A DNA stretch of 64,000 bases from Trypanosoma brucei (taxonomy: Eukaryota): the NCBI GenBank assembly GCA_000002445.1, contig CH464491.1, positions 2,368,001-2,432,000 on the forward strand, written 5' to 3'. The position numbers and the translations under genes are program-made. The notes under the pieces are model-generated. The model saw only the letters and a list, made by a program, of their open reading frames with translations, had not been told where the DNA came from and searched no databases. Each line of letters starts with the position of its first letter. Within the stretch, counting starts at the first letter, position 1. This document shows positions 7,385 to 58,454 of the stretch, in pieces.

Positions 7385-9565
7385 TTATTCTCTCATCCTT
7401 TTTCTGTTTCTGTTGCTTGTTGACTGCATACCCCCTCTGTCTCTGAGGGTGTCTGGACTATTCCTGCGTCCGGTGCTTTTCCTGCTAGCTCCACACCCGG
7501 CAATAAGGGGGGAAGTTGCAGAAGGGAGAGTGGGTTGTATGACTGTTACCTTAGGTGAGGACTTCACCTGCGGCCGGCTCCGTTCAACCGCAATGAGAAA
7601 TTGCGCCAGCCTTTTGGAGAAGCATATATCCTGCACACACTCACCTTCTACCGCAAACCTGACACGTAACTCCTCCAAACCGGGACAGCTCATCAAGTGC
7701 AACGACGTTTCTTCGCAGTCGCCGCGTTGGCTGGTAACAGCGCGCTCTACCTTCATACCGTGCATCTTCTTTTGATGTAGGGTGAGGCCAGTTTTGCTAG
7801 CACACTGCCTTCCGCATGTCGGGCACACCAACATGGATGTGTTTGTATGCGGGGAATCAGTGGCACACAATTTTGTGCTTTTGCTGCATTTAAGCTCGAC
7901 TCCCTCACCTTTGTGGAAAGCCTTACAGTGTCGGATGAGGGAGTCCCTGCAACTGAGCACTTTTTGGCACACACCACACTGCACCTCACCTTTCCCCGGG
8001 ACGTCAACGTTTCCCTCACGGGCACGCTTACGAGGGAATTGCACCACCACCACGGTACCGTCCTCCGTCACTATGCTTTTATGTTTGAATTTCTTGTGTA
8101 GTGACAGGGAAGAACGTGTACCGAAGCTCGCCTCGCGCAGGTCACATTGAAACGGCAGCTTCCGTGTATCCTTAGGGGCTGGCACTGCTGGGGCTCTACC
8201 ATCTCCTTGCAATGAGTCTTCGTTCTCTCGCCCCCTTTTCACGCGGCAACTACCGCTGCCTATGCCATGTATTGTTCTAAGGTGGTGTAATAGTCGGCCT
8301 GGCACTGCGAATTTGGAGGCACAGATGGTACAATGAAGAACCTGTGGTCTCATTGGGACTCGTGTGCTCGATGGTAAAGGAACGATCGCCACCACTGGAG
8401 GGGGCTCCGGGGGGATGTCCACTGCAGGTGTTGCATCGCCGTATTTGATCCTCCGGAGGGCATCAGCTCGCACAAAGCCGTGTTTGTTTACCATGTGCGT
8501 TACAGCACTCGAGCGGCATTGGTATGTGGCATCACATTCCGTACATTTGGTCGGTTCGAAGGTTCTCTGAAGAGTGCGTGTCGCAACAGGTGTGGTTGTT
8601 TGTGTTTGTATTGTTGGCCCTATTGCTGCATGTTGCGGGTTGCACCATCGGAACTGTGGAGGCACACTCGGGTTGATTTTTCGCAACATCCATCCATAGT
8701 ATCTTGAAGACCCAACACGAAAGCGTGCCAGTGCCGTTTCTTCTTTCCTCGTCAGTTCTTCTTTATGTTTTGTTGGAAAGTGGTTGCCCGTGATACCAAA
8801 CCTATGAGTGTTCTCATGGACTTCTTCCGANNNNNNNNNNNNNNNNNNNNNNNNNNNNNNNNNNNNNNNNNNNNNNNNNNNNNNNNNNNNNNNNNNNNNN
8901 NNNNNNNNNNNNNNNNNNNNNNNNNNNNNNAACATGATTGGGCCAAGGACAGTTCCTTGTGGCACTCCTCGCTCAAATGTTCTGCTTCTGGAGAGCTTCT
9001 CCTTGAATCTCACTCTGCCAGTTCGGTTACTCAGAAATGATACGCACCACTTCACAATGTGGGGTGATACCTTCATTCTGTGCATTTCCCTCGCAATTTT
9101 GTCGTGGTCTACTGTATCAAATGCCTTCTCGTAGTCAACGAATACAGCACCCGTACGATATTGGTGCGTGGGACGGCAGAGGGCAGCGCGGACGTGCAGG
9201 AGTTGTTCGAGCGTTGAGCATCCGGGGCGAAAGCCTGATTGCTGCGGCGTCAGCTGGGACTCAACAGTGTCTCTAAGTCTCGCGGCAATTATGCGCTCCA
9301 TGACTTTGCAGAGACAGCTCGTGAGCGTCACAGGCCTGTAAGAATCGAGGTCCTCCGCCTTTTTTCCGGCCTTCAGGATGGGGATGATAACACCAGTCTT
9401 CCATGCAGGCGGCACGACTCCCGTTCGTAGGCTCTCATTGAATAGCCTCAGCACAACATTCAGCGCTGTTCTGCCGAGATGTTGCAGTGCCTCGTTGTAT
9501 AAGCAATCAGGTCCGGCTGCGGATCCACTCGGTAGCAGTTTGATCGATCTCCGTAGTTCAGCCAT
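7385..9565 (-). CDS. ingi ORF, reverse-transcriptase region and C-terminal C2H2 zinc-finger region (interrupted by N gap)
   Basis: 726-aa ORF including X residues. RT motifs are present (GFRPGCST, VFVDYEKAFDTVDHD, GVPQGTVLGP). After the gap come Cys/His-rich C2H2-like segments (CTECDATYQCRSSAVTHMVNKHG, CTICASKF...HHLRTIHG, CGVCQKV...HCKAFH). The ORF is contiguous only because Ns translate as X. Confidence 0.8.
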   Translation of the reverse strand: MAELRRSIKLLPSGSAAGPDCLYNEALQHLGRTALNVVLRLFNESLRTGVVPPAWKTGVIIPILKAGKKAEDLDSYRPVTLTSCLCKVMERIIAARLRDTVESQLTPQQSGFRPGCSTLEQLLHVRAALCRPTHQYRTGAVFVDYEKAFDTVDHDKIAREMHRMKVSPHIVKWCVSFLSNRTGRVRFKEKLSRSRTFERGVPQGTVLGPIMXXXXXXXXXXXXXXXXXXXXXXXXXXXXXXXXXXSEEVHENTHRFGITGNHFPTKHKEELTRKEETALARFRVGSSRYYGWMLRKINPSVPPQFRWCNPQHAAIGPTIQTQTTTPVATRTLQRTFEPTKCTECDATYQCRSSAVTHMVNKHGFVRADALRRIKYGDATPAVDIPPEPPPVVAIVPLPSSTRVPMRPQVLHCTICASKFAVPGRLLHHLRTIHGIGSGSCRVKRGRENEDSLQGDGRAPAVPAPKDTRKLPFQCDLREASFGTRSSLSLHKKFKHKSIVTEDGTVVVVQFPRKRAREGNVDVPGKGEVQCGVCQKVLSCRDSLIRHCKAFHKGEGVELKCSKSTKLCATDSPHTNTSMLVCPTCGRQCASKTGLTLHQKKMHGMKVERAVTSQRGDCEETSLHLMSCPGLEELRVRFAVEGECVQDICFSKRLAQFLIAVERSRPQVKSSPKVTVIQPTLPSATSPLIAGCGASRKSTGRRNSPDTLRDRGGMQSTSNRNRKRMRE
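8831..8930. other. Assembly/scaffold gap (100 N) inside the ingi element
   Basis: Run of 100 n characters. The flanking ORF lacks the distal RT and RNase H portion, consistent with ~1.2-1.3 kb of missing sequence. Confidence 0.95.
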
Positions 9566-45366: not shown

Positions 45367-46551
45367 GTGGGTAAAATGCTTGGAGCGAACCTTGGGATTA
45401 ACTTTCACACTGATGACGATCATGGTGATCATGGTGATCACGAGGGCCATGAGGGGCACGACATGGGGGGTTGCGCTCCAGCCGCAGGGTCGTACTCGAT
45501 GGGGCTTCACATTGCAGCCATTTTTATTCTCCTGATCGCGTCATTCCTTGGGACAGTTCTTCCCATTGCCGGGAACTATGTGCCACGATTCAAGCTGCCG
45601 CCGTTTCTTATTGTTGTTTCGAAGTGTATTTCCACAGGTGTTGTTATGTCAGTTGCCGTGTTAACACTGCTCAATCACAGCTTACACAGCTTCATGGAGA
45701 AGTGTATCCCACACGGGCTGAGTATGGAAGTGTACAGCGCTTTCGGCTTGCTGTTTATGCTGATCTCGGCTTTACTGATGCATTCATTCGACTCTGCCAT
45801 GGACCTCCTTCTTGAGGGTTGGGCGGTTCGTAAGGAAGAGGAGAAATTAGCCGACGGCGCACCGCAAGTGGCTGATAGTGTGCCGACGGCGGCGGCTCTT
45901 CCACCAACTCAATGCGGAATGAAGCGTTGCACGGCTCAACCAGGAGTATCATGTGAAACTAACGGCTGCTGCCAATCATCTCCGGGACCTGCGTACGGTG
46001 CTACCGGGTGCTGTGGAAGCCGTGGTGAAGCCGCTGCGCTGCTTACCGGTGCGCGGCGTGTTATGGCCCTAGCCTTAATGGAATTCGGTTTGGTGGTGCA
46101 CAGTATTTTTCTCGGTCTTTCCGTAGGTATTGCATCCGACTCGCGCACCAAAGTGCTGCTTGTGGCTCTTTCCTTCCATCAATTTTTTGAAGGCCTGGCT
46201 TTAGGGGCGCGGTTGGCGGAGGCGTCGCTGAAAGCCAAGTTGGAGTTATTTTTGGCCATCCTCTTTTCCATTTCTGTTCCTGTTGGTACGGCTATCGGTG
46301 CCGTTACCATGAGGGATGGCGGCAAAAGCATTACCGGCTCCAGTTACGTCACTATGAGCGCCATTGTCAATGCCATTGGTGCTGGTATTCTGCTTTACAT
46401 CGGTTTTGTCCTGCTTCTCGTTGATTTCCCAACGGATCTGCGCATATACGCGGGTGTCGGGACGCCGAATCGCTTTGTGAGACGCATTGCAATGTTTGTG
46501 GCCCTTTGGGTTGGCTTCGGTGTGATGGCGCTGCTGTCCAAGTGGCACTAG
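45367..46551 (+). CDS. ZIP-family (Zrt/Irt-like) divalent metal transporter, diverged paralogue with Cys-rich cytosolic loop
   Basis: 394 aa. Eight-TM ZIP layout with signature HSIFLGLSVG (TM4) and HQFFEGLALGARL (TM5). N-terminal His/Asp tract (HTDDDHGDHGDHEGHEGHD). The TM3-TM4 loop has CGMKRCTAQPGVSCETNGCCQSSPGPAYGATGCCGS. About 55-60% identical to the downstream array copies. Confidence 0.85.
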   Translation: MGKMLGANLGINFHTDDDHGDHGDHEGHEGHDMGGCAPAAGSYSMGLHIAAIFILLIASFLGTVLPIAGNYVPRFKLPPFLIVVSKCISTGVVMSVAVLTLLNHSLHSFMEKCIPHGLSMEVYSAFGLLFMLISALLMHSFDSAMDLLLEGWAVRKEEEKLADGAPQVADSVPTAAALPPTQCGMKRCTAQPGVSCETNGCCQSSPGPAYGATGCCGSRGEAAALLTGARRVMALALMEFGLVVHSIFLGLSVGIASDSRTKVLLVALSFHQFFEGLALGARLAEASLKAKLELFLAILFSISVPVGTAIGAVTMRDGGKSITGSSYVTMSAIVNAIGAGILLYIGFVLLLVDFPTDLRIYAGVGTPNRFVRRIAMFVALWVGFGVMALLSKWH

Positions 46552-48337
46552 GTAACGTAACTTTTTATTTACATTAATTTTTTTTCTTCACTCCCCCTAA
46601 CTTTGAGGAGTTGAATATGTTCGCACGTGGGTTAACACGTAACAAATAGTATCGCACGGAAAATGAACTCTTTACCGCGTGAGAGGCGTGTCGTGCTGAA
46701 GCGGACGCATCAGAGAAGAGGAGTAAATAAGCGAGGGATTGAGGGATGTTATGCTCACACGCTGTGTTCTGAGAGGTGGGGGAGAAGGTACTGAATTGGC
46801 ACTAAAATAGCGACGATGCGAAACAAGTAAGAAAATGAATAAGCAAAAGTTTTATGGGCAACGATTTTGAGAAAAAAAAATCAATTGCACAAATAGGCGG
46901 TAACCTCTTTATAGCTCTATCTTTTGAAACCCTATTCGCTAGTTTAGCGTTGCGGGGAAGCCGTCGTACTGATCCTAATCTCCTCACTTCCCTTCCTTCC
47001 CCTTCTATTTGTTTTTATTTACAAAATGATGGAAAGCGGGATGATTTGTTGTTCCTGGTGTGTATTCCTTTTTATTACTTATAATGATATGTTCATCATT
47101 GCTGTTATTAATTCGTTTTTGGTGTCTTATGCTATTTTTACATTTAGGGACTCTCATTTTATTTTTATTTTTTTCGAAGGTGTGTGAGTAACAACACATA
47201 CACAACTCGAGGGACTGAAGCATATCGGCGGGTATTGTATCAAGAAAAATTTTAAATTATTAACAAGCACAACACATCAGTGATGGGTCAAATGCAACGA
47301 AATCAGCGTGAAGGGTGAAATAAATAAATGAATCAAGACCTGAAGAAAACGAAATAGAAAGAGAACAGAAAAGGCAACGAATAAAATGGTGGAATGGAGA
47401 GTGAAAGTAACTTTTACAGAAAGGGAGAAGGGGAAAAGAAGAGATTAATAAAATAGGAAAATGTCGGAGGGAATCGAAGTGGCAGCACCTGAAAGAGACA
47501 GTTTAATATTAGCAGGGAAATCATTACTCATCCAATTCGCAACTCATATTCACGTGGTGAAGTGAGGCCGCGGCTTTGTTGCTATTTCTCTTACTCTTTG
47601 TGTACGTGTGTGTTTATTTTCTACGGCGTCGTTACCGGGGTTAATATCCAAAAGAAGGACTTAGTTTAACGTCATTCTAACAGATAAGTGTAATATTTGG
47701 GAGGAGACATTCTCGTATGTATTTTTGTTTTCCCCCCTTTTTGGCGTTATTTGGTGTCCGCTTGTTGGAGATTTATGTTCCTCATACATTTTTTTTTTTC
47801 AAAAAAAGCCTCAACTTGATAAATGCTCGTCCACGTGTGCCCTCCTTTGCCTTGCCTTATTTTTAACATATCTTTTTCAGTTATTCTTTGAGGTAATCTT
47901 CACAAAGTGGCACAGCAACAAAAAAAGATATATATGTATATATATCTAGCAACTGCATGATAATATTTGACATTGAAAGGTTTCAACCATCCTCAAGAGT
48001 ATATCTTCATACTTTTCCTTCACCCTTAATAAAAATCTCTCACATCCCGCTCCCCCCCGTTCCAAGGAAGAAAAAATTACACAAACACAGACACATTTCT
48101 TCACACAGCACCTACAGTCAAATAATAACAGAGCGGGGAGCTTCTAAGCAAAAGGTCCGACCAAGAAACAACCACAAAAAAAAAGGATTAAGAAATCGAA
48201 AAAATTGAAAAACATATAACTATACGACCAATTTAAAAAAAATAATAATAATTAAATTATGTAATAATAATAAAAATATATAACAACGATTCAGAAATAA
48301 AGAAAAAATATATAAAAAGCAACCAAAAACCAGGCGG

Positions 48338-48525
48338 TCGCCAGTGCTGTGTGTGGTGGGATGCTGCTGTACCTTGCTTTCTGCCTCATGTTGAGTGACT
48401 TCCCATCGGATATGCAGAAACATGCTGGGAAGGATAAGGTAAGGCGTTTCTTCAGATGCTTTGGGATGTTTGCGGCTCTTTGGCTTGGCGCTGCGTTGAT
48501 GGCCGTGTTAGGAAAATGGGTCTAA
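48338..48525 (+). pseudogene. Truncated 3' fragment (~62 codons) of a ZIP transporter gene marking the start of the tandem array
   Basis: caggcggtcgccagtgctgtgtgtggtgggatgctgctgtacc...tgggtctaa is identical to the 3' end of the copy at 49613..50797. It is fused upstream to unrelated AT-rich sequence and followed by the same 1087-bp intergenic unit. Confidence 0.8.
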
Positions 48526-49440
48526 GCACCCACTGTTCATGTGTGTGCCAATGGATTGCCCACTTCATTTTCTGTTTTCCTCGTACTCTTTTTCCAGCCC
48601 CCTTTTTCAGTTGTAATGATGCTCCCGCACGTGTGTTGCGTGGTCCGGTGAGCCATTGTGCCCTACCTGTTGCATGCGTTAGAGTTGTTCTTGAGGTGTG
48701 CTTGTGCATGTACATACATATATGTATATGTATATATACGTGTGTGTGTTTCTTGAGCTAGCGCCGAGTTGGGAGTGAGAGGAGTTGTGCTCTTCGTGTG
48801 TGCGTAGGTTTGAGCGTATGCGGACTGAGTGTCGGATGTTTAGCGGTGCGAAGCATAAGCAATTGCTCACGTGTTTGTATGCGTGTGTGTTGCGTACATG
48901 TTTCCAAACATCTACCCTGCCTTCAGGAGGGACCTGCACGAGTACATACATGAGCATATGTGCTGTGTTTACGCTTGTCCTTGATTTAGTTACAATATAC
49001 AACTGCGTACATCTACATTTTACTACTTTATGTTCGTTTGTTCATTTATTAGTATTTTTAAATAGCAATGCCCACCATCCTCGTAGTTACTCTACCGTGC
49101 TGGTGCGGGGGACGAAGCTGCAGACGCGTGGTGTACGAATATATGCATGCGTATGGATGTGTGTGCATGTGTTTCTGTGTGCGTCAATGCGCGTTTGAGT
49201 GTCTGCCTGCGCGTATATTTAAATAGTGATTTAGCGGATATCTGACTGTAGAGGGTACGACGGACGGGCTTATTTTCCACATGAGACTATTTCTTCCCCT
49301 GCTTTCTTTCTGTGCTGGTGCTGGTGCTGGTGTGTGTCTGTGTGTGCGCAGTTGTGGATGGGATGGTGGCAAATGTATCGCATTGCTGCTGTTCCCATCC
49401 CTTAGTGCCCCATTGTTTCTGCACGCTCTCGCTAAGCATT

Positions 49441-49520
49441 CCTTCTTACCCTTTTTGCCCATTGATTCTTTTTCTATGTTTGCCGTCCCTTTTTCACCTT
49501 TTTCTTTTTGGTGTGTGTAG
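49441..49520 (+). promoter_or_regulatory. Polypyrimidine tract plus downstream AG: candidate spliced-leader trans-splicing acceptor region for ZIP copy 1 (repeated before each array copy)
   Basis: ccttcttaccctttttgcccattgattctttttctatgtttgccgtccctttttcacctttttctttttgg then gtgtgtgtAG, ~95 nt upstream of the ATG. The same block recurs at 51713-51792, 53776-53860 and 55813-55897. Function inferred from kinetoplastid mRNA-processing rules, not shown by the sequence. Confidence 0.4.
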
Positions 49521-49612
49521 ATACCATAAAGTGACAGTCAGGTTTCGGTTGGTGCTGCCTTAGCTAATCTCAGCAAAAACACACTTCCTCTTTTTGTGAT
49601 ACAGTCAGAGCG

Positions 49613-50797
49613 ATGGCTAACGTTAATAACGAGACCACCGAATGTGGTGCATTGCTTTCGAATATCACTTCCCTACAGACGACGCTAACGTCTATGGGAT
49701 GCCAAGTGCCCGCCTTGCATCATCACACGCATGACCACGGCCACCATCACCATCATCATCATCATGACGATCACACCCACGGAGCGGACGACCACGAAGG
49801 TCACGGGCACAGTCACGGCGGGTGCGAAAGTGGTCATGGCACGTATTCCATTGGACTGCATGTTGTGGCGATCTTTGTTGTGTTGATTGCGTCGTTTCTG
49901 GGCACGCTGATACCGATAATCGGAAAGTACGTGCCGGCACTGCGGCTTCCTCCGTTTGTGTTTGTCCTTGGCAAGTGCATTGCAGCTGGAGTGCTACTGT
50001 CAGTGTCGACTATCCACATGATTAATGAAGCTGTAGCGCAGCTACAGGAAGATTGTGTTCCGGAGTCGTTTCGCGAATCATATGAGGCATATGCATTTCT
50101 GTTTGCTGTGGCTGGAGCGTTGCTGTTGCACATGGTGGACGTCATTGTTGACGCACGTGTGACAAACAAGAGCGATTCCAGCACCAACAAACCTGAGGGT
50201 CAACCCGATGCCGAAGAAGCTCAAGCGGCCCCGGCTGCTCTTGATGCGTACGATGGTCATCACTGCCACTACGCTGTCGGCATGCCACAGTCGAGGACCA
50301 GACGCCTCGTCTCTGCAATGTTTATGGAGTTTGCGGTAACTGTGCACAGTGTGTTCATTGGGCTGGCAGTCGGTATCGCAAGGGATGCGGAGACTAAAAC
50401 TTTACTTGTGGCTCTGGCATTTCATCAGATGTTGGAGGGCCTTGCTCTGGGCGCGCGTCTGGTGGATGCAGAGTTGAGCTTGAAGCTTGAAATGCTGTTT
50501 GCACTACTCTTCTCTGTCTCTGCGCCCCTGGGCACCGCAATTGCCGTTGGCACGATTGCGATTTGGAATGTGTCGATGGTAGGAACCGCGTTCGTGATTA
50601 CACAGGCGGTCGCCAGTGCTGTGTGTGGTGGGATGCTGCTGTACCTTGCTTTCTGCCTCATGTTGAGTGACTTCCCATCGGATATGCAGAAACATGCTGG
50701 GAAGGATAAGGTAAGGCGTTTCTTCAGATGCTTTGGGATGTTTGCGGCTCTTTGGCTTGGCGCTGCGTTGATGGCCGTGTTAGGAAAATGGGTCTAA
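49613..50797 (+). CDS. ZIP-family metal transporter, array copy 1 (type A, long His tract)
   Basis: 394 aa. N-terminal HHHTHDHGHHHHHHHHDDHTHGADDHEGHGHSHGG. TM4 HSVFIGLAVG, TM5 HQMLEGLALGARL. TM3-TM4 loop with DGHHCHY. Confidence 0.9.
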   Translation: MANVNNETTECGALLSNITSLQTTLTSMGCQVPALHHHTHDHGHHHHHHHHDDHTHGADDHEGHGHSHGGCESGHGTYSIGLHVVAIFVVLIASFLGTLIPIIGKYVPALRLPPFVFVLGKCIAAGVLLSVSTIHMINEAVAQLQEDCVPESFRESYEAYAFLFAVAGALLLHMVDVIVDARVTNKSDSSTNKPEGQPDAEEAQAAPAALDAYDGHHCHYAVGMPQSRTRRLVSAMFMEFAVTVHSVFIGLAVGIARDAETKTLLVALAFHQMLEGLALGARLVDAELSLKLEMLFALLFSVSAPLGTAIAVGTIAIWNVSMVGTAFVITQAVASAVCGGMLLYLAFCLMLSDFPSDMQKHAGKDKVRRFFRCFGMFAALWLGAALMAVLGKWV

Positions 50798-51884
50798 GCA
50801 CCCACTGTTCATGTGTGTGCCAATGGATTGCCCACTTCATTTTCTGTTTTCCTCGTACTCTTTTTCCAGCCCCCTTTTTCAGTTGTAATGATGCTCCCGC
50901 ACGTGTGTTGCGTGGTCCGGTGAGCCATTGTGCCCTACCTGTTGCATGCGTTAGAGTTGTTCTTGAGGTGTGCTTGTGCATGTACATACATATATGTATA
51001 TGTATATATACGTGTGTGTGTTTCTTGAGCTAGCGCCGAGTTGGGAGTGAGAGGAGTTGTGCTCTTCGTGTGTGCGTAGGTTTGAGCGTATGCGGACTGA
51101 GTGTCGGATGTTTAGCGGTGCGAAGCATAAGCAATTGCTCACGTGTTTGTATGCGTGTGTGTTGCGTACATGTTTCCAAACATCTACCCTGCCTTCAGGA
51201 GGGACCTGCACGAGTACATACATGAGCATATGTGCTGTGTTTACGCTTGTCCTTGATTTAGTTACAATATACAACTGCGTACATCTACATTTTACTACTT
51301 TATGTTCGTTTGTTCATTTATTAGTATTTTTAAATAGCAATGCCCACCATCCTCGTAGTTACTCTACCGTGCTGGTGCGGGGGACGAAGCTGCAGACGCG
51401 TGGTGTACGAATATATGCATGCGTATGGATGTGTGTGCATGTGTTTCTGTGTGCGTCAATGCGCGTTTGAGTGTCTGCCTGCGCGTATATTTAAATAGTG
51501 ATTTAGCGGATATCTGACTGTAGAGGGTACGACGGACGGGCTTATTTTCCACATGAGACTATTTCTTCCCCTGCTTTCTTTCTGTGCTGGTGCTGGTGCT
51601 GGTGTGTGTCTGTGTGTGCGCAGTTGTGGATGGGATGGTGGCAAATGTATCGCATTGCTGCTGTTCCCATCCCTTAGTGCCCCATTGTTTCTGCACGCTC
51701 TCGCTAAGCATTCCTTCTTACCCTTTTTGCCCATTGATTCTTTTTCTATGTTTGTCGTCCCTTTTTCACCTTTTTCTTTTTGGTGTGTGTAGATACCATA
51801 AAGTGACAGTCAGGTTTCGGTTGGTGCTGCCTTAGCTAATCTCAGCAAAAACACACTTCCTCTTTTTGTGATACAGTCAGAGCG

Positions 51885-53069
51885 ATGGCTAACGTTAATA
51901 ACGAGACCACCGAATGTGGTGCATTGCTTTCGAATATCACTTCCCTACAGACGACGCTAACGTCTATGGGATGCCAAGTGCCCGCCTTGCATCATCACAC
52001 GCATGACCACGGCCACCATCACCATCATCATCATCATGACGATCACACCCACGGAGCGGACGACCACGAAGGTCACGGGCACAGTCACGGCGGGTGTGAA
52101 AGTGGTCATGGCACGTATTCCATTGGACTGCATGTTGTGGCGATCTTTGTTGTGTTGATTGCGTCGTTTCTGGGCACGCTGATACCGATAATCGGAAAGT
52201 ACGTGCCGGCACTGCGGCTTCCTCCGTTTGTGTTTGTCCTTGGCAAGTGCATTGCAGCTGGAGTGCTACTGTCAGTGTCGACTATCCACATGATTAATGA
52301 AGCTGTAGCGCAGCTACAGGAAGATTGTGTTCCGGAGTCGTTTCGCGAATCATATGAGGCATATGCATTTCTGTTTGCTGTGGCTGGAGCGTTGCTGTTG
52401 CACATGGTGGACGTCATTGTTGACGCACGTGTGACAAACAAGAGCGATTCCAGCACCAACAAACCTGAGGGTCAACCCGATGCCGAAGAAGCTCAAGCGG
52501 CCCCGGCCGCTCTTGATGCGTACGATGGTCATCACTGCCACTACGCTGTCGGCATGCCACAGTCGAGGACCAGACGCCTCGTCTCTGCAATGTTTATGGA
52601 GTTTGCGGTAACTGTGCACAGTGTGTTCATTGGGCTGGCAGTCGGTATCGCAAGGGATGCGGAGACCAAAACTTTACTTGTGGCTCTGGTTTTTCATCAG
52701 ATGTTGGAGGGCCTTGCTCTGGGCGCGCGTCTGGTGGATGCAGAGTTGAGCTTGAAGCTTGAAATGCTGTTTGCACTACTCTTCTCTGTCTCTGCGCCCC
52801 TGGGCACCGCAATTGCCGTTGGCACGATTGCGATTTGGAATGTGTCGATGGTAGGAACCGCGTTCGTGATTACACAGGCGGTCACCAGTGCTGTGTGTGG
52901 TGGGATGCTGCTGTACCTTGCTTTCTGCCTCATGTTGAGTGACTTCCCATCGGATATGCAGAAACATGCTGGGAAGGATAAGGTAAGGCGTTTCTTCAGA
53001 TGCTTTGGGATGTTTGCGGCTCTTTGGTTTGGCGCTGCGTTAATGGCCTTTATCGGAAAGTGGATCTAA
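51885..53069 (+). CDS. ZIP-family metal transporter, array copy 2 (type A 5' part, type-B-like 3' end)
   Basis: 394 aa, >98% identical to copy 1. C-terminus reads WFGAALMAFIGKWI like copies 3/4, not WLGAALMAVLGKWV as in copy 1. Confidence 0.9.
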   Translation: MANVNNETTECGALLSNITSLQTTLTSMGCQVPALHHHTHDHGHHHHHHHHDDHTHGADDHEGHGHSHGGCESGHGTYSIGLHVVAIFVVLIASFLGTLIPIIGKYVPALRLPPFVFVLGKCIAAGVLLSVSTIHMINEAVAQLQEDCVPESFRESYEAYAFLFAVAGALLLHMVDVIVDARVTNKSDSSTNKPEGQPDAEEAQAAPAALDAYDGHHCHYAVGMPQSRTRRLVSAMFMEFAVTVHSVFIGLAVGIARDAETKTLLVALVFHQMLEGLALGARLVDAELSLKLEMLFALLFSVSAPLGTAIAVGTIAIWNVSMVGTAFVITQAVTSAVCGGMLLYLAFCLMLSDFPSDMQKHAGKDKVRRFFRCFGMFAALWFGAALMAFIGKWI

Positions 53070-53954
53070 GCACCCACTGTTCATGTGTGTGCCAATGGAT
53101 TGCCCACTTCATTTTCTGTTTTCCTCGTACTCTTTTTCCAGCCCCCTTTTTCAGTTGTAATGATGCTCCCGCACGTGTGTTGCGTGGTCCGGTGAGCCAT
53201 TGTGCCCTACCTGTTGCATGCGTTAGAGTTGTTCTTGAGGTGTGCTTGTGCATGTACATACATATATGTATATGTATATATACGTGTGTGTGCTTAGTAC
53301 ATGTTTCCAAACATCTACCCTGCCTTCAGGAGGGACCCGCACGAGTACATACATGAGCAAATGTGCTCCGTTTTTTTGTTTTATAACATACAACTGTACT
53401 ACAAAGTTCAACTCAGTATACCTAAATTTCAGTGTTTTTTTTATTGTCAACGTTTTTTTCTCGTTTTAGCAATGCCCACCATCCTCGTTGTTACTCTACC
53501 GTGCTGGTGCGGGGGACGAAGCTGCAGACGCGTGGTGTACGAATATATGCATGCGTATGGATGTGTGTGCATGTGTTTCTGTGTGCGTCAATGCGCGTTT
53601 GAGTGTCTGCCTGCGCGTATATTTAAATAGTGATTTAGCGGATATCTGACTGTAGAGGGTACGACGGACGGGCTTATTTTTTACATCATATTTGTAGTCG
53701 TTTTTGTCGTTTTTCAATTATTTTTTGTTTTTTAAAAATATTCTTACAACATTTGTGTCTATGTACGCTCTCGCTAAGCATTCCTTCTTACCCTTTTTGC
53801 CCATTGATTCTTTTTCTATGTTTGCCGTCCCTTTTTCACCTTTTTCTTTTTGGTGTGTGTAGATACCATAAAGTGACAGTCAGGTTTCGGTTGGTGCTGC
53901 CTTAGCTAATCTCAGCAAAAACACACTTCCTCTTTTTGTGATACAGTCAGAGCG

Positions 53955-55106
53955 ATGGCTAACGTTAATAACGAGACCACCGAATGTGGTGCATTGCTTT
54001 CGAATATCACTTCCCTACAGACGACGCTAACGTCTATGGGATGCCAAGTGCCCGTCTTGCATCATCATCATCGTGACAATCACACCCACGGAGTGGTCGA
54101 CGATGGAATTGATGGAGACACTCACGGCGGGTGTGAAAGTGGTCATGGCACGTATTCCATTGGACTGCATGTTGTGGCGATCTTTGTTGTGTTGATTGCG
54201 TCGTTTCTGGGCACGCTGATACCGATAATCGGAAAGTACGTGCCGGCACTGCGGCTTCCTCCGTTTGCGCTTGTCCTTGGCAAGTGCATTGCAGCTGGAG
54301 TGCTACTGTCAGTGTCGACTATCCACATGATTAATGAATCTATTTTACAGCTACAGGAAGATTGTGTTCCGGAGTCGTTTCGCGAATCATATGAGGCATA
54401 TGCATTTCTGTTTGCTGTGGCTGGAGCGTTGTTAATGCAGATGGTGGACGTAATTGTGGATAAATATGTGACAAATAAGAGCGATTCCAGCACCAACAAA
54501 CCTGAGGGTCAACCCGATGCCGAAGAAGCTCAAGCGGCCCCGGCTGCTCTTGATGCGTACGATGGTCATCACTGCCACTACGCTGTCGGCATGCCACAGT
54601 CGAGGACTAAACGTCTCGTCGCTGCAATGTTTATGGAGTTTGCGGTAACTGTGCACAGTGTGTTTGTCGGGCTGGCAGTCGGTATCGCAAGGGATGCGGA
54701 GACCAAAACTTTACTTGTGGCTCTGGTTTTTCATCAGATGTTGGAGGGCCTTGCTCTGGGTGCGCGTCTGGTGGATGCAGAGTTGAGCTTGAAGCTTGAA
54801 ATGCTGTTTGCACTACTCTTCTCTGTCTCTGCGCCCCTGGGCACCGCAATTGCCGTTGGCACGATTGCGATTTGGAATGTGTCGATGGTAGGAACCGCGT
54901 TCGTGATTACACAGGCGGTCACCAGTGCTGTGTGTGGTGGGATGCTGCTGTACCTTGCTTTCTGCCTCATGTTGAGTGACTTCCCATCGGATATGCAGAA
55001 ACATGCTGGGAAGGATAAGGTAAGGCGTTTCTTCAGATGCTTTGGGATGTTTGCGGCTCTTTGGTTTGGCGCTGCGTTAATGGCCTTTATCGGAAAGTGG
55101 ATCTAA
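53955..55106 (+). CDS. ZIP-family metal transporter, array copy 3 (type B, short His tract)
   Basis: 383 aa. N-terminal HHHHRDNHTHGVVDDGIDGDTHGG replaces the long His tract. The rest is collinear with copies 1/2. Confidence 0.9.
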   Translation: MANVNNETTECGALLSNITSLQTTLTSMGCQVPVLHHHHRDNHTHGVVDDGIDGDTHGGCESGHGTYSIGLHVVAIFVVLIASFLGTLIPIIGKYVPALRLPPFALVLGKCIAAGVLLSVSTIHMINESILQLQEDCVPESFRESYEAYAFLFAVAGALLMQMVDVIVDKYVTNKSDSSTNKPEGQPDAEEAQAAPAALDAYDGHHCHYAVGMPQSRTKRLVAAMFMEFAVTVHSVFVGLAVGIARDAETKTLLVALVFHQMLEGLALGARLVDAELSLKLEMLFALLFSVSAPLGTAIAVGTIAIWNVSMVGTAFVITQAVTSAVCGGMLLYLAFCLMLSDFPSDMQKHAGKDKVRRFFRCFGMFAALWFGAALMAFIGKWI

Positions 55107-55991
55107 GCACCCACTGTTCATGTGTGTGCCAATGGATTGCCCACTTCATTTTCTGTTTTCCTCGTACTCTTTTTCCAGCCCCCTTTTTCAGTTGTAATGA
55201 TGCTCCCGCACGTGTGTTGCGTGGTCCGGTGAGCCATTGTGCCCTACCTGTTGCATGCGTTAGAGTTGTTCTTGAGGTGTGCTTGTGCATGTACATACAT
55301 ATATGTATATGTATATATACGTGTGTGTGCTTAGTACATGTTTCCAAACATCTACCCTGCCTTCAGGAGGGACCTGCACGAGTACATACATGAGCAAATG
55401 TGCTCCGTTTTTTTGTTTTATAACATACAACTGTACTACAAAGTTCAACTCAGTATACCTAAATTTCAGTGTTTTTTTTATTGTCAACGTTTTTTTCTCG
55501 TTTTAGTAATGCCCACCATCCTCGTTGTTACTCTACCGTGCTGGTGCGGGGGACGAAGCTGCAGACGCGTGGTGTACGAATATATGCATGCGTATGGATG
55601 TGTGTGCATGTGTTTCTGTGTGCGTCAATGCGCGTTTGAGTGTCTGCCTGCGCGTATATTTAAATAGTGATTTAGCGGATATCTGACTGTAGAGGGTACG
55701 ACGGACGGGCTTATTTTTTACATCATATTTGTAGTCGTTTTTGTCGTTTTTCAATTATTTTTTGTTTTTTAAAAATATTCTTACAACATTTGTGTCTATG
55801 TACGCTCTCGCTAAGCATTCCTTCTTACCCTTTTTGCCCATTGATTCTTTTTCTATGTTTGCCGTCCCTTTTTCACCTTTTTCTTTTTGGTGTGTGTAGA
55901 TACCATAAAGTGACAGTCAGGTTTCGGTTGGTGCTGCCTTAGCTAATCTCAGCAAAAACACACTTCCTCTTTTTGTGATACAGTCAGAGCG

Positions 55992-57155
55992 ATGGCTAAC
56001 GTTAATAACGAGACCACCGAATGTGGTGCATTGCTTTCGAATATCACTTCCCTACAGACGACGCTAACGTCTATGGGATGCCAAGTGCCCGCCTTGCATC
56101 ATCATCATCGTGACAATCACACCCACGGAGTGGTCGACGATGGAATTGATGGAGACACTCACGGCGGGTGTGAAAGTGGTCATGGCACGTATTCCATTGG
56201 ACTGCATGTTGTGGCGATCTTTGTTGTGTTGATTGCGTCGTTTCTGGGCACGCTGATACCGATAATCGGAAAGTACGTGCCGGCACTGCGGCTTCCTCCG
56301 TTTGCGCTTGTCCTTGGCAAGTGCATTGCAGCTGGAGTGCTACTGTCAGTGTCGACGATCCACATGATTAATGAATCTATTTTACAGCTACAGGAAGATT
56401 GTGTTCCGGAGTCGTTTCGCGAATCATATGAGGCATATGCATTTCTGTTTGCTGTGGCTGGAGCGTTGCTGTTGCACATGGTGGACGTCCTTTCTGGTTT
56501 TTGTGTTCGTCGGGATGAAATGGTTTATAGTGATACTTCGGCAGTTGTTCCGCATGAGGTTATCGATGCCGAAGAAGCTCAAGCGGCCCCGGCTGCTCTT
56601 GATGCGTACGATGGTCATCACTGCCACTACGCTGTCGGCATGCCACAGTCGAGGACTAAACGTCTTTTTTCTGCAATGTTTATGGAGTTTGCGGTAACTG
56701 TGCACAGTGTGTTTGTCGGGCTGGCAGTCGGTATCGCAAGGGATGCGGAGACCAAAACTTTACTTGTGGCTCTGGTTTTTCATCAGATGTTGGAGGGCCT
56801 TGCTCTGGGCGCGCGTCTGGTGGATGCAGAGTTGAGCTTGAAGCTTGAAATGCTGTTTGCACTACTCTTCTCTGTCTCTGCGCCCCTGGGCACCGCAATT
56901 GCCGTTGGCACGATTGCGATTTGGAATGTGTCGATGGTAGGAACCGCGTTCGTGATTACACAGGCGGTCACCAGTGCTGTGTGTGGTGGGATGCTGCTGT
57001 ACCTTGCTTTCTGCCTCATGTTGAGTGACTTCCCATCGGATATGCAGAAACATGCTGGGAAGGATAAGGTAAGACGTTTCTTCAGATGCTTTGGGATGTT
57101 TGCGGCTCTTTGGCTTGGCGCTGCGTTAATGGCCTTTATTGGAAAATGGATCTAA
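55992..57155 (+). CDS. ZIP-family metal transporter, array copy 4 (type B with replaced TM3-TM4 loop segment)
   Basis: 387 aa. As copy 3, but loop segment VIVDKYVTNKSDSSTNKPEGQPD is replaced by LSGFCVRRDEMVYSDTSAVVPHEVID (77 nt vs 65 nt, in frame). Confidence 0.9.
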   Translation: MANVNNETTECGALLSNITSLQTTLTSMGCQVPALHHHHRDNHTHGVVDDGIDGDTHGGCESGHGTYSIGLHVVAIFVVLIASFLGTLIPIIGKYVPALRLPPFALVLGKCIAAGVLLSVSTIHMINESILQLQEDCVPESFRESYEAYAFLFAVAGALLLHMVDVLSGFCVRRDEMVYSDTSAVVPHEVIDAEEAQAAPAALDAYDGHHCHYAVGMPQSRTKRLFSAMFMEFAVTVHSVFVGLAVGIARDAETKTLLVALVFHQMLEGLALGARLVDAELSLKLEMLFALLFSVSAPLGTAIAVGTIAIWNVSMVGTAFVITQAVTSAVCGGMLLYLAFCLMLSDFPSDMQKHAGKDKVRRFFRCFGMFAALWLGAALMAFIGKWI

Positions 57156-57297
57156 ATCTAAATTGTTTTGTGAATTTGTGTATATTTTAAATTCCTGTTT
57201 TTTTCTTTGTCTTTTTCTTTGTCTTTTTCTATGTTGCTTTTTTTTTTTGTTTTTCTTTTTTGTTTTTTTTTTAATGTTAGGTTTTTTATTGTCCACT

Positions 57298-57639
57298 ATG
57301 TCCCGTGTCCCTATTAGCGAAGAACAGGCACAACAGTTGCTGATGAAGCAACAAGCGCAGGAGGAAAAGCAGGAAGCAATGAGAGAACAGAAAGAAAGTA
57401 TTTTGCGCGCCGTTGTGTCTGCTGAAGGAAGGGAACGCCTGACCCGACTGAGTCAGGTGAAAGCTGATCGTGCAACAGCTGTGGAATCTTATATCATACA
57501 AGCTGTTCGCCAAGGCAAGCTACAACCGCCCGTTTCTGATGAAATGGTGCGGGAAATTCTTGAACAAATGTCTTCTCAGTCAGCGGAATCCAAGAGCAAT
57601 ATTGTGTTTGCCCGGAAACGCATGGATGACGATTGGTGA
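57298..57639 (+). CDS. PDCD5: PDCD5/TFAR19-family protein (programmed cell death protein 5 homologue)
   Basis: Start at Met 57298 inside a longer low-complexity ORF. ILRAVVSAEGRERLTRLSQVKADRATAVESYIIQAVRQGKLQPPVSDEMVREILEQMS matches remembered PDCD5 ([50 protein letters not shown]). About 113 aa. Confidence 0.75.
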   Translation: MSRVPISEEQAQQLLMKQQAQEEKQEAMREQKESILRAVVSAEGRERLTRLSQVKADRATAVESYIIQAVRQGKLQPPVSDEMVREILEQMSSQSAESKSNIVFARKRMDDDW

Positions 57640-58454
57640 TTGGTTGTTTGGTCGTTTGGTTGGTGGCGTACATTTCTGTTTTATTAGGATTTTAATTTTG
57701 TAGTCTTTCTTAAGGTTTGTGTCCCCTATGTCTGGGTTTCATTTTTTTTTTTTACCCGACGAACTGTGCTGATGTCTCATGCTTTTGGGAATTCTTTTAG
57801 GTAATTATTCTGCTGATTTATTAGATAATGTTCCACGTCGTTGTTTCCCTCGTCCCTTACCACTTCTATTCTCTGCATCCCTCCATTGTGTTTCGTGGTT
57901 ATTCACTTATTTGCGTGTTAAGGTGGTAGTAGTTTTTTTTTCGGTTTGTTTTGTGGTTCAGGGTGTTGCCTGCATCCGTGCACTGGTGTGATGTGATTCG
58001 CGTGTGGTTGTGGGCTTGTGGATTGAAGGTGTGACAGAGTGGTGTTTTGCGTCCCGCTGCTTTTTATGTGTCTGCGTTGGACCATGCAGCTCTTTTATTT
58101 CTTGTGGTGGGGGCTGATGTCGGAAGGAAGCTGCCGTTTCTCGTTTCGAACCGGGCTTTGAGAGAGGCCGGGGCGCTGGTGTGGAATGAAGTGTTCTGGT
58201 GTTCTTTGGGACCTGCAAGATACCAAGAGGAGTGCGGCTGTGTTAATTCGCACTTAATTATTACTGTTTCTTAAGCTAGTTTTGTACAGGGTCACTTGCT
58301 GTTGCGTTTAAACGGTATTTGAACTCTCCTTTTCTGATCGTACATATTCATGGGAAGGGGAGGGGCGCTGAGAGAATCGTATTTGAGGTAATAGAAAGTG
58401 GTGAAGTGAAGGAAGCAGGAAAATACAGCGGAAAAACAGAGAGAGCGCTTAATA

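What the first reader, a model, noticed from the sequence alone, without database searches (positions are those of the whole stretch)
49700..49810. His-tract length variation in the N-terminal ectodomain of array ZIP copies
Copies 1/2 encode HHHTHDHGHHHHHHHHDDHTHGADDHEGHGHSHGG (11 amino acids longer, with a run of 8 His). Copies 3/4 encode HHHHRDNHTHGVVDDGIDGDTHGG (54040-54130; 56077-56167). The underlying DNA consists of CAT/CAC/GAC triplet runs, so slippage can expand or contract the metal-binding ectodomain. In ZIP transporters such His-rich segments are implicated in metal capture and sensing. Expression-wise identical transporters with different His-tract lengths may cover different metal affinities.
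Basis: partly seen in the sequence, partly recalled or inferred. Interest (0 to 1): 0.55.

Follow-up and report, generated by a model that had tools for sequence, protein, structure and literature searches.

The report
His-rich tail dimorphism in TbZIP3 transporters
The four tandem zinc-transporter genes of Trypanosoma brucei (the published TbZIP3 array) carry either a long histidine-rich tail or a short histidine-poor one before the first membrane helix, and this is a stable difference between two paralogue classes with different downstream regulatory regions, not an unstable repeat.

Summary
The window is T. brucei TREU927 chromosome 11, and the four genes are Tb927.11.9000-9030, the published zinc-regulated TbZIP3 array. 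Copies 1 and 2 encode a 37-residue tract with 19 His. Copies 3 and 4 encode a 26-residue tract with 7 His.

The difference has two parts. One is a clean 33-nt indel between two imperfect 18-nt direct repeats. The other is an adjacent 33-nt block with 12 substitutions that turns four His into Asp or Gly.

The tract lies in a predicted disordered segment with no Lys/Arg and no signal peptide, upstream of TM1. An outward orientation is inferred, not shown.

The tract does not behave as a slippage locus. Ten long copies from three subspecies encode the identical tract, and the longest pure triplet run is (CAT)5.

The copies are not otherwise equivalent. They differ at more than 20 other residues. 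In three subspecies the long class sits mostly upstream of the GU-repeat-rich region through which ZNK1 acts. The short class has fewer GU motifs or none.

A metal-capture role is plausible by analogy with fungal ZrfC and the ZIP4 ectodomain, but it is untested. Orthologues without His show the tract is not needed for transport. Modest interest.

The parts
45376..46551 (+). TbZIP3a (Tb927.11.8990), the diverged 5'-most paralogue. It has its own His/Asp-rich N-terminus (HTDDDHGDHGDHEGHEGHDMGGC, 45406-45474).
   Evidence: Exact match to EAN79852. Pfam Zip E = 3e-42. 41% identity to copy 1. Sequence.
48328..48525 (+). Orphan 3' end of a ZIP3 CDS (residues 330-394 plus stop). It is followed by a full copy of the GU-rich intergenic region (48526-49612) and marks the array boundary.
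   Evidence: tblastn and blastn. The same fragment is present in T. b. equiperdum. 9 GU-motif hits.
49613..50797 (+). TbZIP3 copy 1 (Tb927.11.9000), 394 aa, long-His class.
   Evidence: Exact match to EAN79853 / Q384C8. Pfam Zip E = 1.6e-47. AF2 model with 8 TM helices, pLDDT 81. Foldseek match to BbZIP 5TSA, probability 1.0.
49712..49822 (+). Long His-rich tract, ALHHHTHDHGHHHHHHHHDDHTHGADDHEGHGHSHGG (19 His in 37 aa). It is predicted to be disordered.
   Evidence: AF2 pLDDT below 50 for residues 36-68.
49718..49735 (+). Direct repeat A (CATCATCACACGCATGAC, HHHTHD), the upstream boundary of the 33-nt indel.
   Evidence: Deleting 33 nt starting anywhere in 49718-49726 reproduces the equiperdum/gambiense short form. 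Starting anywhere in 49730-49736 reproduces the Logan short form.
49751..49768 (+). Direct repeat B (CATCATCATCATCATGAC, HHHHHD), 33 nt downstream of repeat A. It contains the only pure triplet run, (CAT)5.
49784..49816 (+). Substituted block, ADDHEGHGHSH in the long class. The short class has VVDDGIDGDTH at 54093-54125 and 56130-56162.
   Evidence: 12 of 33 nt differ. No other donor sequence exists in the window. The long-class ending HGHSHGGC is shared with T. vivax and T. theileri/T. melophagium.
50798..51884 (+). 1087-nt downstream/intergenic region of copy 1, with 9 GUGUGUG(U/C) hits. This is the GU-repeat-rich ZIP3 3'-UTR type.
   Evidence: The motif and its role are taken from PMC13569496.
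51885..53069 (+). TbZIP3 copy 2 (Tb927.11.9010), 394 aa, long-His class (tract 51984-52094). It is a mosaic with a copy-3-like 3' third.
   Evidence: Exact match to EAN79854. Region-by-region divergence.
53070..53954 (+). 885-nt downstream region of copy 2, short type, with 5 GU hits.
53955..55106 (+). TbZIP3 copy 3 (Tb927.11.9020), 383 aa, short-His class (tract 54054-54131, 7 His).
   Evidence: Exact match to EAN79855..
55107..55991 (+). 885-nt downstream region of copy 3, with 5 GU hits.
55992..57155 (+). TbZIP3 copy 4 (Tb927.11.9030), 387 aa, short-His class (tract 56091-56168). It carries a replaced block in the TM3-TM4 loop.
   Evidence: Exact match to EAN79856. Loop pS 0.37 and pN 0.22 against copy 1.
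57156..58454 (+). Downstream region of copy 4. It is unrelated to the other intergenic regions and has 0 GU-motif hits.
   Evidence: The paper treats 9000-9020 as sharing the ZIP3 3'-UTR.

Best explanation
**What it is.** The tract is the disordered, Lys/Arg-free, His/Asp-rich linker between a short N-terminal helix and TM1 of the T. brucei ZIP3 zinc importers. It most probably faces the outside of the cell.

**Two classes.** The tract exists in two discrete paralogue classes that are stable across subspecies.
- The long class has 19 His. It belongs to the copies that are amplified in number and are mostly followed by the GU-repeat-rich 3' region, through which ZNK1 destroys the mRNA when zinc is plentiful.
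- The short class has 7-8 His and relatively more Asp. It belongs to the array-distal paralogues (.9020 and .9030). These have fewer or no GU motifs and more than 20 further substitutions.

**Origin (shown from sequence).** A 33-nt unequal exchange or slippage occurred between two imperfect 18-nt direct repeats. It happened at least twice, with different breakpoints. A burst of 12 substitutions in the adjacent 33 nt removed four His.

**Function (inferred).** The tail acts as an extracellular zinc-harvesting antenna at the mouth of the transporter. The starvation-induced class has the larger one. The tail is accessory, not required for transport. It is not a hypermutable contingency tract.
For: - **Identity of the locus.** The proteins match EAN79852-79856 exactly. 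The array is the published TbZIP3 locus, regulated by zinc through its 3'-UTR (PMC13569496).
- **Anatomy.** There is no hydrophobic segment in residues 1-79, which contain 0 Lys/Arg and 20 His. AF2 predicts a helix at residues 5-27, disorder at 36-68, and 8 confident TM helices. The fold matches BbZIP.
- **Orientation.** Lys/Arg are concentrated in the TM1-2, TM3-4 and TM7-8 loops. An N-x-T sequon ahead of the first Cys is conserved in T. brucei, T. cruzi and T. theileri. N-out topology is stated for LIT1, IRT1 and TcIT (PMC8785980).
- **Stability.** Ten long copies in TREU927, DAL972 and T. b. equiperdum encode the same tract.
- **Indel anatomy.** Two non-overlapping sets of exact 33-nt deletions reproduce the two short variants.
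- **Divergence hot spot.** In the tract pN is 0.19, against 0.02-0.05 elsewhere in the CDS. Fisher p = 1e-6.
- **Coupling to the downstream region.** Tract class goes with downstream-region class in three subspecies.
- **Recurrence.** His-tract length also differs between paralogues in T. vivax and T. melophagium.
- **Analogy.** The extracellular N-terminus of ZrfC, with its zinc-binding motifs, is needed for zinc scavenging in the host (PMC4343018). The ZIP4 ectodomain has a disordered His-rich loop (PMC4915132).
Against: - No experiment shows the orientation, the maturation or the metal binding of this tail.
- pN/pS is about 1 in the tract, on 15 differences, which also fits neutral drift of a low-complexity segment.
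- T. grayi and the Leishmaniinae orthologues have 0-2 His in the equivalent segment. LiZIP3 is nevertheless cited as a functional zinc importer. The tract is therefore dispensable for ZIP transport.
- The coupling to 3'-UTR class is imperfect. Copy 2 in TREU927 is long-His but has the 885-nt downstream type.
- I could not obtain the Lister 427 sequences. Equating the short class with the paper's ZIP3b-c is an inference.
- The gambiense hybrid copy is flagged low quality and may be a mis-assembly.
Confidence: 0.6

Rival explanations
1. The tract is a neutral low-complexity indel with no functional meaning. It is an unconstrained disordered linker that drifts in length and composition, and the two forms reflect only the age of the paralogue split.
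For: - pN is about equal to pS in the tract.
- The tract is absent or His-free in T. grayi, Phytomonas and the Leishmaniinae orthologues.
- AF2 predicts disorder.
- Length varies in three species through different small indels.
Against: - The long tract is conserved exactly across 10 copies and three subspecies.
- The HGHSHGGC ending is conserved between T. brucei, T. vivax and T. theileri/T. melophagium.
- The whole 79-residue tail contains no Lys/Arg, which indicates a compositional constraint.
- The substitutions in the short block are directional, His to Asp or Gly.
Confidence: 0.25
2. The tract is a hypermutable contingency tract. Triplet slippage would frequently expand and contract the His run, creating transporters of different affinity within and between strains.
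For: - A 33-nt indel sits at repeat microhomology.
- Two short variants require different breakpoints.
- HX-repeat length differences occur between paralogues in T. vivax and T. melophagium.
Against: - The longest pure run is (CAT)5, and TRF scores are 35-39.
- No length variant of the His8 run appears among 10 long copies from three subspecies. The DNA is identical apart from one synonymous change.
- Only two length classes are seen in four independent sources.
Confidence: 0.07
3. The tail has a non-capture role. It might be a zinc sensor for trafficking, endocytosis or degradation, a processed pro-segment, or an exposed epitope diversified under immune pressure, and not an uptake antenna.
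For: - His-rich segments of other ZIPs act in sensing or endocytosis (ZIP4, PMC7661102, listed).
- The tail concentrates the non-synonymous change between paralogues.
- It is predicted to be exposed and disordered.
Against: - The known sensing segments are cytosolic loops, whereas this tail is predicted to be outside.
- The cytosolic TM3-4 loop here has its own HHCH motif.
- No cleavage site or signal peptide is evident.
- Only two classes exist, which is poor diversity for immune evasion.
Confidence: 0.08

Closest known systems
TbZIP3 tandem array of T. brucei (Tb927.11.8990-9030): zinc-dependent mRNA turnover by ZNK1 (PMC13569496) and array differentiation (Jackson 2014, PMC4413820)
   Same: It is the same locus. 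The four proteins and ZIP3a match the TREU927 entries exactly. The GU-repeat motifs lie downstream of copies 1-3 and are absent after copy 4, as the paper implies when it writes '9000-9020'.
   Different: In the text available to me, those papers do not mention the N-terminal His tract or its two classes (the single 'histidine' hit concerns ZNK1). They treat 9000-9030 as one 'ZIP3' group.
Aspergillus fumigatus ZrfC / Candida albicans Zrt1: ZIP importers with a long extracellular N-terminus carrying zinc-binding motifs
   Same: ZrfC is a ZIP importer of a pathogen, induced by zinc limitation at neutral or alkaline pH. Its N-terminal extracellular extension with putative zinc-binding motifs is required for scavenging zinc in host tissue but not for basal transport (PMC4343018; PMC5751234).
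   Different: No sequence homology of the tail was detected, because Pfam matches only the Zip core at residues 81-390. No zincophore partner (Pra1/Aspf2) is known in trypanosomes. The function of the T. brucei tail is untested.
Histidine-rich loop of the ZIP4 ectodomain and the equivalent His clusters of ZIP6/ZIP10 (LIV-1 subfamily)
   Same: It is a disordered, His-rich extracellular segment upstream of the transmembrane domain, and it varies in length between paralogues (PMC4915132).
   Different: LIV-1 proteins have a folded ectodomain (HRD and PAL-motif domains) and a signal peptide. TbZIP3 has only a roughly 79-residue tail with one predicted helix and no signal peptide. It belongs to the ZRT/IRT-like branch.
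LiZIP3 (Leishmania infantum) and TcIT (T. cruzi), the characterised orthologues
   Same: They are syntenic orthologues with the same 8-TM core and the same TM4/TM5 metal residues.
   Different: The N-terminal segments of Leishmania orthologues have 0-1 His and the T. cruzi ones have 4, with fixed length across strains. TcIT was reported as an iron transporter, whereas TbZIP3 mRNA responds to zinc and not to iron.

Membership tests
ZIP (Zrt/Irt-like, SLC39, PF02535) metal transporters | Match to the Zip profile above the curated threshold | tested here: met
   All four copies and ZIP3a score 145-163 bits against a cut-off of 35.1.
ZIP (Zrt/Irt-like, SLC39, PF02535) metal transporters | Eight transmembrane helices with the BbZIP fold | tested here: met
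   The AF2 model has 8 long helices with pLDDT above 90. Foldseek top hits are BbZIP structures 5TSA, 6PGI and 7Z6M, probability 1.0, TM-score (target) 0.63-0.68.
ZIP (Zrt/Irt-like, SLC39, PF02535) metal transporters | Conserved metal-site residues in TM4 (H-S) and TM5 (H-Q-x-x-E) | tested here: met
   E239, H245, S246, H271, Q272 and E275 are invariant in 34 homologues and present in all four copies.
ZIP (Zrt/Irt-like, SLC39, PF02535) metal transporters | Transport of Zn2+ or another divalent metal into the cytosol | not testable with these tools
   Only indirect literature is available. ZIP3 knockdown was a hit in the zinc-reporter screen, and znk1-null cells overexpress ZIP3 and accumulate zinc (PMC13569496).
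TbZIP3 array (Tb927.11.9000-9030) | Sequence identity and synteny with the reference locus | tested here: met
   Exact protein matches to EAN79853-79856 on the 5.26-Mb chromosome. Flanking EF-G-like and BCCIP genes are the same as in DAL972 and equiperdum.
Slippage-prone simple-sequence (contingency) tract | Long uninterrupted short-unit repeat | tested here: not met
   The longest pure run is (CAT)5, 15 nt. TRF scores are 35-39, below the default threshold of 50.
Slippage-prone simple-sequence (contingency) tract | Repeat-unit length polymorphism between copies or strains | tested here: not met
   Ten long copies in three subspecies have the same length and amino-acid sequence. The only length step is 33 nt, giving two classes. 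The sample is small: three assemblies besides this window, plus one read set.
Extracellular His-rich metal-capture tails of ZIP importers (ZrfC-like, ZIP4-ECD loop-like) | Segment located on the extracytoplasmic side of the membrane | tested here: inconclusive
   This is inferred only. The tail has 0 Lys/Arg, against 14 in the TM1-2, TM3-4 and TM7-8 loops. N-x-T sequons are conserved. The family's topology is N-out. No experimental data exist.
Extracellular His-rich metal-capture tails of ZIP importers (ZrfC-like, ZIP4-ECD loop-like) | Clustered His or HxH motifs able to bind Zn2+ | tested here: met
   This is met for composition only: 19 His in 37 residues in the long form and 7-8 in 26 in the short form. 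Binding itself cannot be tested here.
Extracellular His-rich metal-capture tails of ZIP importers (ZrfC-like, ZIP4-ECD loop-like) | Homology of the tail to the ZrfC N-terminus or the ZIP4 ectodomain | tested here: not met
   No Pfam family matches residues 1-80. The resemblance is functional and compositional, not homologous.

The most novel reading that the evidence does not exclude
T. brucei may maintain two ectodomain classes of one zinc importer as a division of labour.

- A His-rich 'antenna' version is amplified in copy number and switched on by zinc starvation through GU-repeat/ZNK1 control.
- An Asp-enriched, His-poor version is expressed more constitutively and has different metal affinity or selectivity.

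The tail would then set the capture properties, and its His content would track an extracellular bloodstream lifestyle. His counts are highest in T. brucei and T. vivax, low in T. cruzi, and near zero in Leishmania.
Probability: 0.15. Interest if true: 0.5.

Novelty: new member of a known kind. Interest (0 to 1): 0.3.

Why it matters
The locus is the main regulated zinc-uptake system of African trypanosomes, and how the parasite wins zinc from plasma is poorly understood. If the His-rich tail raises zinc capture, the two classes would give a simple structural handle on affinity. It would be testable by tail swaps and peptide binding. The tail would also be an exposed, parasite-specific segment of an important transporter.

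The practical point for current work is narrower. Reagents and analyses that treat Tb927.11.9000-9030 as one 'ZIP3' pool two protein classes that also have different 3' regions.

Otherwise this is ordinary paralogue divergence in a low-complexity segment.

Tried and rejected
- **Assembly artefact: rejected.** The same forms occur in Sanger, PacBio and Illumina-derived assemblies.
- **Cleaved signal peptide: rejected on hydropathy.** The maximum 19-residue Kyte-Doolittle mean in the first 73 residues is 0.68. No dedicated predictor was available.
- **Donor for the short-class block elsewhere in the window (gene conversion): none found**, allowing up to 3 mismatches.
- **Second protein search with the N-terminal 128 residues, to catch strain fragments:** it returned only T. 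congolense and T. cruzi fragments and no new T. brucei variant.
- **Papers and supplements not held:** the supplements of the NAR paper, which would give the Lister 427 gene list and phylogeny, and the LiZIP3 and ZrfC primary papers.
- **Lister 427 array:** the collections do not contain it, so I could not check that ZIP3b-c are the short class.
- **Positive-inside count using AF2 helix boundaries:** this gave a weak contrast (5 in, 2 out), because the helices extend beyond the membrane. The hydropathy-based loops gave the clearer contrast.
- **Bacterial, phage and plasmid collections:** not used, because the locus is eukaryotic.

Full report
**1. What the window is**

The 394-aa ORF at 49613-50797 matches 'cation transporter, putative' of T. 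brucei exactly (EAN79853/Q384C8). The neighbouring ORFs match EAN79852 and EAN79854-79856 of T. b. brucei TREU927 on a 5.26-Mb chromosome. The locus is therefore Tb927.11.8990 (ZIP3a, 45376-46551) followed by Tb927.11.9000.9010.9020 and .9030.

This is the TbZIP3 array. Its mRNA is destroyed in zinc-replete cells by the nuclear zinc-knuckle RNase ZNK1, acting through GU repeats in the 3'-UTR (PMC13569496). The array had earlier been used as an example of paralogue differentiation in tandem arrays (PMC4413820).

All five proteins hit Pfam Zip far above threshold. An AlphaFold2 model of copy 1 has eight confident TM helices (mean pLDDT 81). Its best structural matches are the BbZIP crystal structures. 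The TM4 and TM5 metal-site residues are invariant.

**2. The observation**

It is correct.
- Copies 1 and 2 encode ALHHHTHDHGHHHHHHHHDDHTHGADDHEGHGHSHGG (49712-49822 and 51984-52094).
- Copies 3 and 4 encode (V/A)LHHHHRDNHTHGVVDDGIDGDTHGG (54054-54131 and 56091-56168).
- The long form has 19 His in 37 residues. The short form has 7 His in 26.

**3. Anatomy of the difference**

There are two adjacent changes.

*The indel.* It is exactly 33 nt. The long form contains two imperfect 18-nt direct repeats, 33 nt apart: CATCATCACACGCATGAC (49718-49735) and CATCATCATCATCATGAC (49751-49768).
- Deleting 33 nt starting anywhere in 49718-49726 reproduces exactly the short form of T. b. equiperdum and T. 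b. gambiense (HHHHHDD).
- Deleting 33 nt starting anywhere in 49730-49736 reproduces exactly the short form in a Logan assembly of run ERR7929162 (HHHTHDD).
- The TREU927 short form is the first of these plus two G-to-A/A-to-G changes (HHHHRDN).

Two non-overlapping breakpoint sets mean at least two repeat-mediated events. This is unequal exchange or slippage between the 18-nt repeats, not stepwise triplet slippage.

*The substituted block.* The next 33-nt block (49784-49816) differs at 12 positions. It turns ADDHEGHGHSH into VVDDGIDGDTH, and four His become Asp or Gly.
- Across the aligned tract pN is 0.19 and pS is 0.19. In the rest of the CDS pN is 0.02-0.05 and pS is 0.07-0.10.
- The first 33 codons are identical.
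- The excess of differences is significant (Fisher p = 1e-6 for the tract and 9e-9 for the block).
- The long-class ending HGHSHGGC is shared with T. vivax and T. theileri/T. melophagium, so the His-poor block is probably derived.
- No donor for the short block exists elsewhere in the window.

**4. Is the tract unstable?**

The evidence says no.
- The longest pure triplet run is (CAT)5, and TRF scores are 35-39.
- I retrieved the array from T. b. gambiense DAL972 and T. b. equiperdum. Together with the window this gives 10 long copies. All encode the identical tract, and the DNA has one synonymous difference.
- Copy number does vary. TREU927 has 2 long and 2 short. DAL972 has 2 long, 1 hybrid and 1 short. 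Equiperdum has 6 long and 3 short. The Lister 427 array has 16 genes.
- The DAL972 hybrid has the long insertion with two 1-nt deletions plus the short-class block. It is flagged low quality, so it may be either a recombinant or a mis-assembly.

**5. The copies are not otherwise equivalent**
- Long and short classes differ at 20-40 further residues, including positions in TM2 and TM3.
- The downstream regions differ. Copy 1 has 1087 nt with 9 GUGUGUG(U/C) hits. Copies 2 and 3 have 885 nt with 5 hits. Copy 4 has unrelated sequence with none.
- Across three subspecies, internal long copies are followed by the 1087-nt type with 8-9 hits. Short copies are followed by the 885-nt type or the motif-free type. 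The last long copy sits at the junction.
- The paper reports six GU locations in each ZIP3 3'-UTR. It reports absent or diminished motifs, and less than 2-fold derepression in znk1 nulls, for the flanking 'ZIP3a-c' genes. It refers to 'the ZIP3 3'-UTR (Tb927.11.9000-9020)'.
- I infer, but could not verify, that the short-His genes correspond to ZIP3b-c.

**6. Where the tract sits**
- Residues 1-79 contain no hydrophobic stretch. The maximum 19-residue hydropathy over the first 73 residues is 0.68. This argues against a cleaved signal peptide.
- The same residues contain no Lys or Arg, 9 Asp/Glu and 20 His.
- Lys/Arg are concentrated in the TM1-2, TM3-4 and TM7-8 loops.
- AF2 predicts a helix at residues 5-27 and disorder at 36-68.
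- An N-x-T sequon before the first Cys is conserved in T. brucei, T. cruzi and T. theileri.
- C71, which ends the tract, and C148 in the TM2-3 loop are invariant in 34 homologues.
- The family topology, with the N- and C-termini outside, is stated for LIT1, IRT1 and TcIT.

Taken together the tail is most probably extracellular and tethered next to the transporter mouth. This is inference, not demonstration.

**7. Comparative picture**

The segment varies between lineages.

| Species or group | His in the N-terminal segment |
|---|---|
| T. brucei, long class | 19 |
| T. vivax | 11-14 |
| T. theileri / T. melophagium | 7-9 |
| T. brucei, short class | 7-8 |
| T. cruzi | 4 |
| T. grayi | 0 |
| Leishmaniinae and Phytomonas | 0-2 |

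- Paralogues also differ in length in T. vivax (42 against 48 residues, through extra HS/HG/HD dipeptides) and in T. melophagium (one extra HEHG). In T. cruzi the length is fixed across many strains.
- The tract is therefore a recurrent indel site in the genus.
- It is dispensable for transport, since LiZIP3 is cited as a functional zinc importer.

**8. Mechanism**

*Shown:* the two classes, the origin of the indel at direct repeats, the substitution hot spot, stability across subspecies, and the association with downstream-region class.

*Inferred:* the tail is an extracellular His-rich zinc-capture antenna, and the starvation-induced, amplified class carries the larger one. The analogy is with the ZrfC N-terminus, which is needed for zinc scavenging in tissue but not for basal activity. 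It is also with the disordered His-rich loop of the ZIP4 ectodomain. The resemblance is functional. No homology of the tail was detected.

*Rivals:* neutral drift of a disordered linker is the main rival, since pN/pS is about 1 and the tract is absent in some orthologues. Hypermutable slippage is disfavoured. Sensing, processing or immune roles cannot be excluded.

**9. Verdict**

This is a real but modest feature of a known and recently characterised locus. The slippage mechanism and the 'otherwise identical' premise are not supported. The affinity idea remains an untested and reasonable hypothesis.

Noticed in passing
window 48328-49612: An orphan 3' end of a ZIP3 CDS (residues 330-394 plus stop) is followed by a complete 1087-nt GU-rich intergenic copy. 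It lies between ZIP3a and the first ZIP3 gene. The same fragment is present in T. b. equiperdum, so it is the true array boundary and not an assembly artefact.
   Followed up: partly
window 51885-53954: Copy 2 (Tb927.11.9010) is a mosaic. It is essentially identical to copy 1 up to about codon 270. After that, and in its 885-nt downstream region, it resembles copy 3. This looks like a crossover or gene-conversion junction inside the CDS.
   Followed up: partly
window 56500-56600 (copy 4, residues ~176-202): Copy 4 (Tb927.11.9030) has a replaced block in the cytosolic TM3-TM4 loop (LSGFCVRRDEMVYSDTSAVVPHEVI, 4 aa longer; pS 0.37 against copy 1). The block is conserved in the last array gene of DAL972 and equiperdum. 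Its origin is unknown.
   Followed up: no
window 57156-58454: The region downstream of copy 4 has no GUGUGUG(U/C) motif, against 5-9 hits after the other copies. This predicts that Tb927.11.9030 escapes ZNK1 control.
   Followed up: partly
window 45406-45474: ZIP3a has its own His/Asp repeat tail (HTDDDHGDHGDHEGHEGHDMGGC). It lacks the N-terminal helix with two Cys that the ZIP3 copies have.
   Followed up: no
proteins P0003/P0073 (T. vivax), P0005/P0008 (T. melophagium): His-tract length also differs between paralogues in T. vivax (42 against 48-residue N-terminus, 11 against 14 His) and in T. melophagium (one extra HEHG unit). In T. cruzi the length is fixed across strains.
   Followed up: yes
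copy 1 residues C71 and C148 (window 49823-49825 and 50054-50056): Two cysteines are invariant in all 34 aligned homologues, including fungal and amoebozoan ZIPs. One ends the His tract and the other lies in the TM2-TM3 loop. Both are on the predicted outer face, so they may form a conserved disulfide.
   Followed up: no
literature: PMC8785980 against PMC13569496: The T. cruzi orthologue of this array was published as an iron transporter (TcIT), while TbZIP3 mRNA responds to zinc and not to iron. The substrate assignment in this clade is not settled.
   Followed up: no
window 8831-8930: There is a run of 100 N (an assembly gap) far upstream of the array.
   Followed up: no
L001 14700-15882 (T. 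b. gambiense DAL972): The third array gene combines the long-class insertion, carrying two 1-nt deletions, with the short-class block. It is annotated as a low-quality protein. It could be a real recombinant haplotype or a collapsed assembly.
   Followed up: partly
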